52,681 bases of DNA from an uncultured Lachnospiraceae bacterium. GTDB lineage: Bacteria; Bacillota; Clostridia; TANB77; CAG-508. Position numbers and translations under genes: made by a program. Under the pieces are notes generated by a model, which was given only the letters and a program-made list of their open reading frames with translations, was not told where the DNA came from and searched no databases. Positions 47,862 through 49,273 of this stretch are shown piece by piece (positions within the stretch are counted from its first letter, which is position 1; each line of letters starts with the position of its first letter). Where the stretch lies: assembly GCA_964613425.1 (NCBI GenBank), contig CAZTHC010000002.1, positions 1 to 52,681 on the forward strand, read 5' to 3'.

Positions 47862-47890
47862 TTGAAAATTGTATAAATATACTATATAAT
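47862..47890 (+). promoter_or_regulatory. Perfect consensus sigma-A promoter for the RT leader
   Basis: TTGAAA (47862..47867), 17-nt spacer, TATAAT (47885..47890). Confidence 0.65.
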
Positions 47891-47896
47891 GTTGGA

Positions 47897-48068
47897 ATAT
47901 AAGGAAGATGTTTTTAACACTTGTAGTTGGGCGAAGTATATTATTTTAATAGTTGTGCAAGTAGCTTTAATATATATAGTCTTGTCGTTATCGATTGCAT
48001 CGATTCTCAAACGATGTTCTTCCTTAGTTTAATAGGATTTTCTTTGGAAATCCTATTAAATTTTATAT
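47897..48068 (+). ncRNA. Candidate structured leader or ncRNA upstream of the reverse transcriptase
   Basis: Predicted TSS near 47897. Hairpin ATCGAT tgc ATCGAT (47990..48004), extended by CGTT/AACG. 13-bp stem TTTAATAGGATTT tctttgg AAATCCTATTAAA (48028..48060) followed by TTTTATATT, which looks like a terminator or attenuator. The RBS GGTGGTG follows immediately. Confidence 0.4.
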
Positions 48069-48082
48069 TGGTGGTGAATTAT

Positions 48083-49273
48083 ATGTCTTTATTAAATGAA
48101 ATTTCTAATGATGTCTGTTGGCAAAAATTTTTAGAATATAAAACAACTAGTGGACAGCTTTCTAAGAAAGAATTAGAAGCCTTAACAACTTTTATAGAAA
48201 AAAAAGAATATATTGAAATTTCAAATTCCATTAGTTCTGGCACTTATGAATTTTCCACACCTCGAAAAATTATAATAAGCAAAATGGGTAAAAGCAAAAA
48301 AAGAATTGTATATAGCTACAATAATAACGAAAATCTTGTACTAAAATTAATTAGTTATCTTTTATATAAATATGACTACCTATTTAGCCCAAATGTGTAC
48401 TCTTTCCGCCAGAATATTGGAGTAAAGAAAGCTATTTACAACTTAACCAGAAAAAACAATTTAAATGTAATGTATGGATATAAATTAGATATAAGTAATT
48501 ATTTTAACAGCGTTACTATACCAATAATTCTGAAGAATTTAAAAAATGATTTAAACGATGAAAATTTATATGATTTTTTCTTTAAACTTCTATCTAATCC
48601 TTATGTTGAGTATAGTGGAAAACAAATTGCGGAAGGAAAAGGGATTATGGCTGGAATACCAATTTCCGCATTTTTAGCTAACTATTATTTAAAAGATATG
48701 GACGCATACTTTCATGAGCAAAATATTATATACGCACGCTATGCAGATGATATTATTGTGTTTGCTAAAACAGAAACTGAAATTAAAAATTTGCAAAACA
48801 CACTTCACAAATTCATTGAAAAATATAAATTAAAAATTAATCCTGAAAAAGAACACTTTTATAAACCTGGAGAAAAATTTGATTTTCTAGGTTTTTCATA
48901 CCAAAATGGAGTTATTGATTTAAGCGACAATACTATAAAAAAAATCAAAGGGAAAATCCGTAGGTCTGCTCGTGGAATTAGAAGATGGATGATAAAAAAT
49001 AATGCAAAAGAAGAATATGCCTTAAAAGCCATGAATAGAAAATATAATAGAAAATTTTATGGTAAAGATGAGAAGGATTTAACATGGAAATATTGGTTTT
49101 TCCCTGTTATTAATACTACAAAATCTTTAAAAGAAGTCGACTTATATATGCAAGACTATTTAAGATTTATTGCAACTGGCAAACACAACAAAAAGAATTT
49201 TGAAAAAGTTCCATATAAAAAACTAAAGGACTGCAATTACAGACCTTTAGTTCATGAATATTATTTAAAATAA
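48083..49273 (+). CDS. Free-standing reverse transcriptase (group-II-intron-like or UG/DRT-like; no endonuclease or other fused domain)
   Basis: RT motifs: PRKIIISKMGKSKKRIVYS (1/2), YGYKLDISNYFNSV (3), GIMAGIPISAFLANYYL (4), YARYADDIIVFA (5, YADD), LKINPEKE (6), FDFLGFSY (7), plus a thumb/X-like basic helix region. ATG at 48083 behind GGTGGTG. Confidence 0.85.
   Translation: MSLLNEISNDVCWQKFLEYKTTSGQLSKKELEALTTFIEKKEYIEISNSISSGTYEFSTPRKIIISKMGKSKKRIVYSYNNNENLVLKLISYLLYKYDYLFSPNVYSFRQNIGVKKAIYNLTRKNNLNVMYGYKLDISNYFNSVTIPIILKNLKNDLNDENLYDFFFKLLSNPYVEYSGKQIAEGKGIMAGIPISAFLANYYLKDMDAYFHEQNIIYARYADDIIVFAKTETEIKNLQNTLHKFIEKYKLKINPEKEHFYKPGEKFDFLGFSYQNGVIDLSDNTIKKIKGKIRRSARGIRRWMIKNNAKEEYALKAMNRKYNRKFYGKDEKDLTWKYWFFPVINTTKSLKEVDLYMQDYLRFIATGKHNKKNFEKVPYKKLKDCNYRPLVHEYYLK

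What the first reader, a model, noticed from the sequence alone, without database searches (positions are those of the whole stretch)
47862..49273. Free-standing reverse transcriptase behind a consensus promoter and a ~170-nt hairpin-rich, terminator-ended leader: candidate RT plus ncRNA system of unassigned class
What the sequence shows:
- A 396-aa protein with all RT palm motifs (YADD catalytic box, FDFLGFSY motif 7) and a basic thumb-like C-terminus. It has no endonuclease, nitrilase, HEPN, primase or other effector domain.
- It is preceded by a textbook TTGAAA-17-TATAAT promoter about 185 nt upstream of its RBS.
- The intervening RNA contains a palindromic hairpin (47990..48004). It also contains a 13-bp stem followed by TTTTATATT (48028..48068) directly in front of the RBS.
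- A discrete small RNA could therefore be made, with RT translation depending on read-through.

What is absent:
- No group II intron RNA domains flank the ORF. There is no GUGYG 5' end and no domain V; the 3' side is occupied 1 nt later by a convergent gene.
- No retron VTG motif and no a1/a2 inverted repeats.
- No DGR-type motif 4.

Interpretation: known defence RTs of the DRT2 and DRT9 type consist of exactly this, a lone RT plus an upstream ncRNA template. Free-standing group-II-like RTs (G2L) are the main alternative. I cannot assign the family from sequence alone.
Basis: partly seen in the sequence, partly recalled or inferred. Interest (0 to 1): 0.8.

Follow-up and report, generated by a model that had tools for sequence, protein, structure and literature searches.

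The report
UG26 reverse transcriptase with RT-5 RNA
This is a stand-alone bacterial reverse transcriptase of the catalogued but unstudied UG26 group. It sits with its own conserved structured small RNA (Rfam RT-5) and a small conserved partner gene, so it is a good but not unprecedented candidate for a new RNA-templated DNA-synthesis system.

Summary
There is a 396-aa RT (48083-49273) with invariant YADD. A TTGAAA-17-TATAAT promoter lies at 47862-47890, followed by a structured leader and a hairpin with a T-run (48026-48069).

The class can be assigned:
- The RT is a full-length match to PADLOC RT_UG26 (E 7e-158), which belongs to UG/Abi class 2.
- The leader is Rfam RF03026 "RT-5 RNA" (47915-48018, above the gathering score).

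In 80 homologous loci the same RNA sits next to the RT in 77 of 81 sources. It lies 5' of the RT in bacteria and 3' of it in three archaeal loci, so it is a separate RNA partner rather than a mere leader.

Its fold has strong covariation. 95% of pair cells are paired against 76% in shuffles, and 22 of 25 pairs show compensatory changes. The fold includes a 7-bp pseudoknot and a closing helix P1 (47900-08/48018-26) outside the Rfam model.

The convergent 132-aa gene (49275-49673) is a conserved partner, found in 17 related loci plus the window. It has no known domain. More distant UG26 loci carry an upstream COG2852-like gene instead.

It is not a group II intron, retron, DRT2, DRT9 or DRT10 member. 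Function is untested. The most likely mechanism is an RT-ncRNA particle that makes templated cDNA, probably for phage defence.

The parts
47862..47890 (+). Sigma-70-type promoter of the ncRNA: -35 TTGAAA (47862-67), 17-nt spacer, -10 TATAAT (47885-90). The predicted start at about 47896-47899 falls just before helix P1.
   Evidence: 11 of 12 matches; 18/18 loci of the same subtype have a >=5/6 -10 box (17 perfect TATAAT, 10 with an upstream TG) ending 6-10 nt before P1. Only 3/26 loci of the COG2852 subtype do.
47900..48026 (+). Structured ncRNA, Rfam RT-5 core plus a closing helix. P1 47900-08/48018-26. P2 47909-12/47916-19. Pseudoknot 47919-25 with 47956-62. P3 47929-47982, with an invariant G.U at 47936/47975. 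P5 47990-95/47999-48004. Conserved unpaired GU at 47984-85. J5/1 48005-17 with CAAA at 48008-11.
   Evidence: RF03026 hit 47915-48018, 47.7 bits against a gathering score of 45.7. Covariation on a structure-blind alignment of 76 loci. P1 cognate against non-cognate duplex energies. P5 hairpin z < -1.5 in 72/77. The MFE fold reproduces P1, z = -3.8.
48026..48069 (+). Terminator-like hairpin (16-17 bp, A/U-rich) followed by TTATATT. It is specific to this locus: most homologs have a U-run directly after P1, and some GC-rich ones have their own hairpin.
   Evidence: comparison.
48070..48076 (+). Ribosome-binding site GGTGGTG, 6 nt before the ATG of the RT.
   Evidence: Read from the sequence.
48083..49273 (+). 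UG26 reverse transcriptase, 396 aa. It has YADD at residues 220-223, a compact fingers-palm-thumb fold, and a C-terminal tail with conserved tyrosines: Y386 invariant, Y378 and Y394 >=90%.
   Evidence: PADLOC RT_UG26 E 6.9e-158, covering 1-395 of 398. Pfam RVT_1. Conservation. AF2 pLDDT 91.9. Foldseek top hits: GsI-IIC RT TM 0.73-0.76, G2L4 0.73, DRT9 0.60-0.65.
49275..49673 (-). Conserved convergent partner gene ('c3' family), 132 aa. It has an N-terminal amphipathic helix (MGLFDxLxK...), a disordered linker (residues 8-46), and a C-terminal alpha/beta domain (residues ~47-132) of unknown function. Its stop codon lies 1 nt from the RT stop.
   Evidence: Clustering of neighbours: 17 loci plus the window, all tail-to-tail with the RT. 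101 homologs, none with a Pfam domain, many on contigs of the same length as RT-bearing contigs. RT adjacent in L081-L083. 78 clusters among 1.84 billion representatives. AF2 model. No fold match. Amphipathicity.
49729..49737 (-). Probable extended -10 box (TGATATAAT on the minus strand) of the partner gene. A GGAGGA RBS lies at 49680-85, before the ATG at 49673.
   Evidence: Read from the sequence. The 17-nt core is repeated at 47717-47762, upstream of the flippase gene. Not listed by the consensus scan because the -35 is weak. Inference.

Best explanation
The locus is a UG26-type (UG/Abi class 2) reverse-transcriptase system. It has three parts: a ~127-nt structured ncRNA (Rfam RT-5 plus closing helix P1), the RT, and in this subclade a small convergent partner protein.

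Proposed working, step by step:
1. The ncRNA is transcribed from its own consensus promoter, starting at P1, and mostly ends at the hairpin/U-run. Read-through gives the RT mRNA.
2. The RNA folds into a P1-closed junction (P2, P3, P5) locked by a 7-bp pseudoknot, and it binds the RT.
3. The RT uses a segment of this RNA as template for cDNA synthesis, as the characterised class 2 relatives DRT2, DRT9 and DRT10 do. It may prime from one of its conserved C-terminal tyrosines.
4. The cDNA, or the RNP state, is coupled to an effector. Here that would be the 132-aa protein with a membrane-type amphipathic N-terminal helix. In other UG26 lineages it would be a COG2852/PD-(D/E)XK-like protein. The likely outcome is growth arrest or phage defence.

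What is shown: the identity of the RT and the RNA, the RNA fold, the promoter, and the co-conservation of the three parts. What is inferred by analogy: RNA-RT binding, templating, priming, effector role and defence.
For: RT identity:
- Full-length RT_UG26 match at 523 bits; the next best, UG27, scores 138 bits.
- More distant relatives carry PADLOC RTasCOG2852 upstream (E 2.8e-84). This matches the UG26 accessory described by Mestre 2022.

RNA identity and linkage:
- RF03026 scores above its gathering score in the window.
- It also does so in all 11 other motif-bearing loci that were tested against Rfam.
- Iterated nhmmer found the RNA in 77/81 sources, always on the RT strand and adjacent to the RT. 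There is only one copy in the 52.7-kb window and none elsewhere in 901 kb of loci.
- The gene order is permuted in 3 archaeal loci (RNA 3' of the RT), and one locus has tandem RNA copies. This points to a trans-acting RNA partner.

RNA structure:
- 95.3% of pair cells are paired against 76.5% in shuffles (0/500 shuffles as good) and 33-42% when partners are slid. 22 of 25 pairs have compensatory changes. The pseudoknot is 99% paired.
- P1: cognate duplexes average -16.7 kcal/mol and non-cognate ones -8.9. The cognate partner is the best of 74 in 40 cases.

Other support:
- Promoter: 18/18 loci of this subtype have a -10 box.
- Catalytic residues are invariant.
- The partner gene is conserved and restricted to this context.
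- Precedents: DRT2 and DRT9 ncRNAs are essential and far more abundant than the RT mRNA (PMC9226505). DRT9 primes from C-terminal tyrosines (PMC12483538). DRT10 uses a 137-nt ncRNA with a template loop after a boundary hairpin, and that paper states that class 2 UG systems may all use ncRNA templates (10.1101/2025.10.16.682844).
Against: - There is no experimental datum for UG26 in the searchable literature.
- Mestre 2022 found the defence-island signal for UG26 inconclusive.
- The window's neighbours are ordinary chromosomal genes: DinB, EamA, LytTR/LiaF, a flippase, an oxidoreductase and a methyltransferase.
- The closest profile relatives after UG26 include UG27 and UG4, which Mestre predicted to be non-defence.
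- No template could be identified. There is no conserved internal U-tract (median longest run 4) and no conserved stop-free frame. A DRT10-like A-B-A' repeat is not significant (27% and 7% of permutations were as good).
- The partner protein has no recognisable fold. It is missing from some close relatives such as L001-L003.
Confidence: 0.6

Rival explanations
1. The RT-5 element is only a cis-acting 5' leader, such as an attenuator or a protein-binding autoregulatory site. It would control RT translation or termination without being a template or RNP partner.
For: In 73 loci the element lies in the 5' UTR, 14-150 nt before the start codon. In the window it is followed by a terminator-like hairpin directly before the RBS. 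Most homologs have a U-run after P1.
Against: In three archaeal loci the RNA lies 3' of the RT. One locus has two tandem copies. In 26 loci it sits between an accessory gene and the RT without its own promoter. The size and pseudoknotted four-helix fold resemble the DRT9 and DRT10 ncRNAs, which are templates.
Confidence: 0.1
2. The system works like a retron. P1 would play the part of the a1/a2 duplex, cDNA would be primed from a 2'-OH of a G next to P1, and a branched msDNA would regulate the partner protein as an effector.
For: The 5' and 3' ends of the RNA pair (P1) as in msr-msd RNAs. Weinberg 2017 speculated that many RT motifs participate in retrons. The tripartite RT + ncRNA + small effector layout fits.
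Against: Retron RT profiles score far below threshold: NF038233 gives 56 bits against 235, and PADLOC retron RTs fall far below UG26. The G after P1 (47910) is base-paired in P2 and covaries (GC 55, AU 12), so it is not an invariant branch G. No Rfam retron msr family hit at E <= 10.
Confidence: 0.08
3. The molecular machine is the same (RT-ncRNA RNP making cDNA), but its role is not anti-phage. It could serve as a maintenance or addiction module of mobile elements, or in DNA repair as G2L4 does.
For: There are no defence genes nearby. The UG26 defence score was inconclusive, and its relatives UG27 and UG4 are predicted non-defence. The fold is closest to group II intron RT and G2L4, TM 0.73-0.76. 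Some loci sit beside TraG/T4SS genes.
Against: According to the DRT10 preprint, every UG/Abi RT characterised so far is a defence system. Swapping of accessories between lineages (c3 against COG2852-like) is typical of defence systems. No relative was found in 2.9 million viral contigs.
Confidence: 0.2
4. It is a degenerate or fragmented group II intron, or a plain G2L RT. The upstream RNA would then be a remnant of intron domains.
For: NCBI annotates one homolog as 'group II intron reverse transcriptase domain-containing protein'. TIGR04416 matches at E 5e-38. The best structural match is GsI-IIC RT.
Against: The TIGR04416 score of 131 is below its cutoff of 300. No group II intron RNA family hit at E <= 10 on either side. 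The RNA is ~127 nt with its own covarying fold, and it is conserved across phyla together with the RT. The 3' side is a convergent gene.
Confidence: 0.03

Closest known systems
UG26 group of UG/Abi class 2 reverse transcriptases (Mestre et al. 2022, NAR; PADLOC RT_UG26 / RTasCOG2852)
   Same: The RT matches the UG26 profile end to end. It has no fused domain. Relatives carry the described COG2852/YcjD-like accessory.
   Different: This locus lacks the COG2852-like gene. It has instead a convergent 132-aa gene of an undescribed family. Mestre et al. reported no ncRNA for UG26; here an ncRNA is nearly universal. The family is far larger than the 35 members then known: 411 species-level genomes and 1592 protein clusters. 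It includes Bacteroidota and Methanomassiliicoccaceae archaea.
RT-5 RNA motif (Weinberg et al. 2017, NAR; Rfam RF03026)
   Same: The window sequence 47915-48018 matches the whole model above the gathering score. P3 and P5 are as in the model.
   Different: The paper says only that RT-1 to RT-19 lie near RT genes and may be retron or DGR parts. Here the motif is tied specifically to UG26 RTs. It is extended by closing helix P1 and small hairpin P2, and it contains a 7-bp pseudoknot. I could not check whether Rfam annotates that pseudoknot.
DRT10 (UG17) RT-ncRNA-SLATT system
   Same: Class 2 UG RT of similar size. The ncRNA is about 130-140 nt with several stem-loops. A single-stranded stretch follows a hairpin. 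The system is tripartite with a small, possibly membrane-directed protein. The C-terminal tail has hydroxyl residues.
   Different: The UG17 profile scores 127 bits against 523 for UG26. No SLATT gene is present. The A-B-A' template signature is not significant. The partner is convergent, not in an operon.
DRT9 (UG28) RT-ncRNA system
   Same: RT plus a 5' structured ncRNA. Conserved C-terminal tyrosines. Structural similarity TM 0.60-0.65.
   Different: The Drt9 profile matches only at E 1e-26. There is no conserved poly-U template loop. An extra partner gene is present.
DRT2 (UG2) RT-ncRNA system
   Same: An RT with an upstream ncRNA under its own promoter.
   Different: NF041746 scores 66 bits against 390. 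The RNA length is not a conserved multiple of 3 and there is no conserved stop-free frame, so there is no sign of a Neo-type concatemer gene.
Group II intron RTs and G2L4
   Same: Closest solved folds, TM 0.73-0.76 at about 18-20% identity.
   Different: There is no intron RNA and no maturase-level profile score. A dedicated small ncRNA and a partner gene are present.

Membership tests
UG26 (UG/Abi class 2 RT) | The RT matches the UG26 profile over its full length and better than any other RT group. | tested here: met
   PADLOC RT_UG26 E 6.9e-158, 523.5 bits, residues 1-395 on 1-394/398. The next best is UG27 at 138 bits.
UG26 (UG/Abi class 2 RT) | No additional fused domain (the class 2 criterion). 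| tested here: met
   Pfam finds RVT_1 only. The AF2 model is a compact 396-aa RT.
UG26 (UG/Abi class 2 RT) | Facultative association with a COG2852/YcjD-like protein (9 of 35 members in Mestre 2022). | tested here: not met
   Absent from the window: upstream is a flippase on the other strand. Present upstream of 26 more distant homologs as RTasCOG2852. The feature is facultative, so it does not exclude membership.
UG26 (UG/Abi class 2 RT) | Anti-phage function. | not testable with these tools
   Mestre 2022 called the defence association inconclusive. There is no defence gene within about 10 kb here.
Rfam RF03026 RT-5 RNA | Covariance-model score at or above the curated gathering score over the whole model. 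| tested here: met
   47.7 bits against 45.7, model positions 1-104/104, at 47915-48018. Eleven homologous loci scored 49-92 bits.
Rfam RF03026 RT-5 RNA | Location next to a reverse transcriptase gene. | tested here: met
   The RNA ends 65 nt before the RT start codon. The same holds in 77/81 sources.
Group II intron | RT/maturase reaching the equivalog cutoff. | tested here: not met
   TIGR04416 scores 131 bits against a cutoff of 300.
Group II intron | Intron RNA domains 5' and 3' of the ORF. | tested here: not met
   No group II intron family at E <= 10 in 46500-50500. The 3' side is a convergent gene 1 nt away.
Retron | Retron-type RT profile. | tested here: not met
   NF038233 scores 56 bits against 235. 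PADLOC retron RT models score far below UG26.
Retron | msr-msd RNA with a1/a2 terminal pairing and an invariant branching G. | tested here: inconclusive
   A terminal pairing (P1) exists and covaries. However, the G after P1 is paired and variable, and no Rfam retron family hit was found.
DRT2 (UG2) | Drt2 equivalog score, and an ncRNA able to yield a concatemeric ORF. | tested here: not met
   NF041746 scores 66 bits against 390. There is no conserved stop-free frame, and the length is a multiple of 3 in only 26/77.
DRT9 (UG28) | Drt9 RT profile as best hit, and a universally conserved poly-U template loop. | tested here: not met
   Drt9 E 1e-26 against UG26 E 7e-158. The longest internal U-run has a median of 4, with no conserved position.
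DRT10 (UG17) | UG17 RT profile as best hit, and an adjacent SLATT gene. | tested here: not met
   RT_UG17 scores 127 bits against 523. The partner has no Pfam or PADLOC hit.
DRT10 (UG17) | A-B-A' repeat in the template loop downstream of a boundary hairpin. | tested here: inconclusive
   Striking cases exist (L001 9 nt; L013, L067 and L073 6 nt). Cognate against non-cognate comparison is not significant: 27% and 7% of permutations were as good.
G2L (free-standing group II-like RTs, e.g. G2L4) | Membership in a G2L clade by phylogeny or profile. | not tested
   No G2L profile was available. There is only fold similarity, TM 0.73 to 9d4s, and sequence E 8e-11.

The most novel reading that the evidence does not exclude
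UG26 + RT-5 RNA + the 132-aa protein would be a three-part immune, or otherwise conflict-related, system. Its RT would make a kind of cDNA product different from those of DRT2 (gene concatemer), DRT9 (poly-dA) and DRT10 (short tandem repeats). A previously undescribed effector with a membrane-binding amphipathic helix would read that product out. Lineages that swap this effector for a nuclease-like protein, and archaeal members, would show that the RT-RNA core is a portable module.
Probability: 0.3. Interest if true: 0.8.

Novelty: new member of a known kind. Interest (0 to 1): 0.5.

Why it matters
Class 2 UG/Abi RTs have so far yielded three unrelated and surprising chemistries: de novo gene synthesis, poly-dA, and telomerase-like repeats. 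UG26 is uncharacterised.

This work supplies what an experimenter needs:
- the exact RNA partner and its boundaries;
- a validated fold, with a pseudoknot and a closing helix to mutate and then compensate;
- the native promoter;
- candidate priming tyrosines;
- two alternative accessory proteins.

It also links an orphan Rfam motif (RT-5) to a defined RT group. It shows that the group is common in gut and rumen Bacillota and Bacteroidota, and that it is present in methanogenic archaea.

Tried and rejected
- RNAalifold on the MAFFT alignment recovered only P3.
- A covariance model built with my structure (R1) found all copies but mis-registered the low-complexity P1 and the variable P5. I therefore tested P1 and P5 without an alignment. 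I counted P2, P3 and the pseudoknot on the structure-blind alignment.
- DRT2-like test: no conserved stop-free frame and no conserved length that is a multiple of 3. No support.
- DRT9-like test: no conserved internal U-tract.
- DRT10/telomerase-like A-B-A' repeat around J5/1: not significant in the anchored test (27% of permutations as good) or the unanchored test (7%).
- Profile-profile comparison of the two accessory families (c3 against COG2852-like): no relation, probability 4%.
- Fold searches for the 132-aa protein found nothing below E 0.001 in the PDB or in viral structures. Pfam, NCBIfam and PADLOC gave nothing.
- A scan of IMG/VR viral contigs for UG26 relatives found none.
- Literature searches for UG26, RT-5/RF03026 and DRT11-13 found no functional study of this group. 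The Weinberg 2017 supplements are not held.
- The direct repeats flanking the module (47717-62 / 49722-67) at first looked like insertion scars. They are better read as two similar minus-strand extended -10 promoters.
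Full report
**1. Observation**

The region reads as the first-stage reader described.
- An ORF at 48083-49273 (+) encodes a 396-aa protein. Its only Pfam domain is RVT_1, at residues 66-272.
- In an alignment of 119 homologs the catalytic Y220, D222 and D223 are invariant and A221 is nearly so. L269-G270-F271 of the FLGF motif are invariant.
- The best promoter-like site in 47300-49900 is TTGAAA-17-TATAAT at 47862-47890, matching 11 of 12 positions.
- The only terminator-like site is the hairpin 48026-48062 followed by TTATATT.
- A GGTGGTG RBS lies at 48070-76.
- Folding 47897-48072 gives -43.3 kcal/mol, z = -3.8 against shuffles. The fold contains the terminator hairpin and a long-range helix joining 47900-08 to 48018-26.

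**2. What the RT is**

- The protein matches PADLOC RT_UG26 from end to end: E 6.9e-158, 523 bits, residues 1-395 on 1-394 of 398. The next profiles are UG27 (138 bits), UG4, UG17 and Drt9.
- Curated NCBIfam models for other RT families all fall far below their cutoffs:

| NCBIfam model | Score (bits) | Cutoff (bits) |
|---|---|---|
| Group II RT/maturase | 131 | 300 |
| Drt3a | 78 | 200 |
| Drt2 | 66 | 390 |
| Retron St85 RT | 56 | 235 |

- UG26 was defined by Mestre et al. 2022 (PMC9226505) as a class 2 UG/Abi group with 35 members. Nine of those were co-located with a COG2852/YcjD-like protein. Its defence-island signal was 'inconclusive', and no ncRNA was reported for it.
- No paper in the searchable library characterises UG26. 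DRT9 = UG28, DRT10 = UG17 and DRT11 = UG5 are the recent additions.
- No member has a solved structure.
- The AF2 model is confident (pLDDT 91.9). It resembles group II intron RT GsI-IIC (TM 0.73-0.76), G2L4 (0.73), DRT9 (0.60-0.65) and DRT2 (0.56), at about 18-20% identity.

**3. What the leader is**

Rfam finds RF03026 'RT-5 RNA' at 47915-48018. The score is 47.7 bits against a gathering score of 45.7, and the whole model is matched. No group II intron or retron RNA family appears even at E <= 10. RT-5 is one of the RT-1 to RT-19 motifs of Weinberg et al. 2017. Those were described only as lying near RT genes, with a speculation about retrons and DGRs.

**4. Comparative evidence**

- A scan of one genome per species found 411 loci encoding relatives, and I kept 80. 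They are almost all gut or rumen MAGs. Taxa include Clostridia, Bacilli, Erysipelotrichaceae, Lachnospiraceae, Oscillospiraceae and Ruminococcus. Muribaculaceae and Alistipes (Bacteroidota) are also represented, as are three Methanomassiliicoccaceae archaea.
- Iterated nhmmer started from the window's leader found the RNA in 77 of 81 sources. It was always on the RT strand. There was one copy in the whole window.
- A covariance model found 78 copies in 901 kb, all adjacent to an RT.
- Rfam itself scores eleven of these loci at 49-92 bits.
- In bacteria the RNA ends 14-150 nt before the RT start. In the three archaeal loci it begins about 26 nt after the RT stop. One Muribaculaceae locus has two tandem copies.
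- This permutation argues that the RNA is a partner of the RT in its own right, not merely a translational leader.

**5. RNA structure**

I counted pairs on a structure-blind MAFFT alignment of 76 loci, covering P2, P3 and a pseudoknot.
- The named pairs are standard in 95.3% of cells. Column shuffles give 76.5% (0 of 500 as good), and sliding the partners by 1-3 columns gives 33-42%.
- 22 of 25 pairs show changes on both sides.
- The pseudoknot joins 47919-25 (ACUUGUA) to the P3 apical loop 47956-62 (UGCAAGU). It is 99% paired, and six of its seven pairs show compensatory types, for example CG 47 / UA 23 / UG 6.
- A G.U pair at 47936/47975 is invariant in all 76 sequences.

The closing helix P1 lies outside the Rfam model. 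It is purine-rich on the 5' side, which defeated column-based counting. An alignment-free test is clear, though. Cognate 5'/3' flanks pair at -16.7 kcal/mol on average and non-cognate flanks at -8.9. The cognate partner is the best of 74 in 40 cases and among the top four in 58. The RNA ends pair over 9 bp in the window and a median of 13 bp elsewhere.

**6. Promoter and 3' end**

- All 18 loci of the window's subtype have a -10 hexamer ending 6-10 nt before P1. 17 of them are perfect TATAAT and 10 have an upstream TG. The predicted transcript therefore begins at P1.
- In loci with the COG2852-like gene, the RNA follows that gene's stop codon directly and only 3 of 26 have such a box. This implies co-transcription there.
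- Most homologs have a U-run after P1, and some GC-rich ones have a separate GC hairpin.
- The window has its own A/U-rich hairpin plus T-run. Production of a discrete RNA, with the RT translated from read-through, is therefore plausible.
- This matches the >1000-fold excess of ncRNA over RT mRNA reported for UG2 and UG28. It remains an inference.

**7. Neighbours**

I clustered all ORFs of the 80 loci.
- The 132-aa gene convergent with the RT (49275-49673, stop codons 1 nt apart) belongs to a family I call 'c3'. It is present in 17 loci plus the window, nearly always tail-to-tail within a few tens of nt of the RT stop. All of these RTs are among those most similar to the window's (>= 50% identity).
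- 26 more distant loci instead carry an upstream, same-strand gene that matches PADLOC RTasCOG2852 (E down to 2.8e-84). This is the accessory Mestre et al. described.
- The two accessories never co-occur and are unrelated (hhalign probability 4%). About 35 loci have neither.
- The c3 family has 101 members at 90% clustering, none with a Pfam domain or an informative name. At least 25 of them share a contig length with an RT hit.
- In L081-L083 a 99-aa c3 member is again convergent with an RVT_1 gene.
- An exhaustive HMMER scan of 1.84 billion representatives finds only 78 clusters, all 39-165 aa.

The AF2 model of c3 has three parts:
- a confident C-terminal alpha/beta domain (residues ~47-132, pLDDT about 90 or more);
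- a disordered stretch at residues 8-46;
- a conserved N-terminus MGLFDxLxK.

The N-terminal residues 2-15 are strongly amphipathic: mean hydrophobic moment 0.55 against 0.26 for shuffles. From memory this resembles the membrane-binding helix alpha0 of PspA/Vipp1 and aurein-type peptides. That is a lead, not a test. Foldseek finds nothing significant in the PDB or in viral structures. The gene has a plausible extended -10 box of its own (TGATATAAT, minus strand, 49729-37).

**8. Context**

Within about 10 kb the window encodes the following:
- a polysaccharide flippase;
- LytTR and LiaF-type regulators;
- DinB;
- an EamA transporter;
- a deacetylase;
- an FAD/Rieske oxidoreductase;
- a methyltransferase.

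There is no defence island and no prophage. No UG26 relative was found in 2.9 million viral contigs, unlike UG27.

**9. Mechanism**

What is shown:
- an intact RT of group UG26;
- a dedicated, promoter-driven, pseudoknotted ncRNA that has co-evolved with it across two bacterial phyla and archaea;
- lineage-specific small accessory genes.

What is inferred from DRT2, DRT9 and DRT10:
- the RNA scaffolds the RT and provides a template;
- a repetitive or otherwise unusual cDNA is made;
- priming may come from a C-terminal tyrosine (Y386 invariant, Y378 and Y394 >= 90%);
- the product acts through the accessory protein to stop growth on infection.

I tried to identify the template and could not.
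- There is no conserved U-tract and no conserved reading frame.
- The attractive A-B-A' repeats after P5 are no better in cognate than in non-cognate pairings. Examples are CGAUUCUC-AAAU-CGAUUCUC in L001, GAUUUU-AAU-GAUUUU in L067 and L073, and UUCU-N9-UUCU in the window.
- The single-stranded J5/1 segment (48005-17, with conserved CAAA), bounded by hairpin P5, remains my best guess for a template. That is speculation.

**10. Verdict**

The finding is real and well delimited, but its class is not unassigned. It is a new member of UG26 with the RT-5 RNA.

New relative to the literature I could search:
- the explicit UG26-RT-5 link;
- the extended RNA architecture, with P1 and P2 outside the Rfam model and the pseudoknot (which I could not check against Rfam's own annotation);
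- the promoter placement;
- the archaeal and permuted members;
- the c3 partner family.

The function is unknown. Defence is likely, but this locus's context does not support it.

Noticed in passing
window 49775-49856; also 51407-51433 and 52258-52284: A 27-nt element, GCCAAAGGGGACGGAGGTTTTTGGCAA, occurs four times in the last 3 kb of the window, against 0 expected. Two copies form a near-perfect 38-nt-arm palindrome between the partner gene and the next gene. That palindrome gives spurious miRNA-family Rfam hits. One copy lies inside the 3' end of ORF 49907-51493 and encodes its ...NGDGGFWQ... tail. It looks like a REP/MITE-type dispersed repeat.
   Followed up: partly
L030:104-255 (minus strand): One Lachnospiraceae UG26-like locus (RT 45% identical) lacks RT-5. 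It has instead the orphan Rfam motif Clostridiales-1 RNA (RF01699, 122 bits) on the opposite strand, 64 nt upstream of the RT start.
   Followed up: no
L007:4218-4373, L009:7214-7370, L011:5871-6025: In three Methanomassiliicoccaceae (archaeal) MAGs the UG26 RT is 52-54% identical to the bacterial one. The RT-5 RNA lies immediately 3' of the RT instead of 5', and tRNA genes are nearby. This suggests horizontal transfer with a rearranged module.
   Followed up: partly
L051:3490-3660 and 3672-3836: A Muribaculaceae locus carries two tandem RT-5 RNA copies between the COG2852-like gene and the RT.
   Followed up: no
window 47717-47762 and 49722-49767: A 46-nt direct repeat (76% identity, 17-nt identical core AAATTATATCATAGTAT) brackets the ncRNA-RT-partner module. 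On the minus strand both copies read TGATATAAT, so they are probably two similar extended -10 promoters, one for the flippase gene and one for the partner gene, rather than insertion scars.
   Followed up: partly
L081-L083 (673-3066) and L004 (4600-7113): In several loci the RT-partner module sits next to a TraG/VirD4-type type IV secretion coupling protein. This suggests carriage on conjugative elements in some hosts.
   Followed up: no
L067 and L073, ORFs ending 165-176 nt upstream of the RT; L047 and L050, ORFs ending 159 nt upstream: Some loci with neither known accessory have other same-strand ORFs of 244-271 aa ending just before the RNA. These could be further alternative accessory proteins.
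   Followed up: no
window 47889-48032 (+): A 47-aa ORF overlaps the ncRNA. Its ATG lies inside the -10 box, upstream of the predicted transcription start. The region evolves by base-pair covariation, so the ORF is not a gene.
   Followed up: yes
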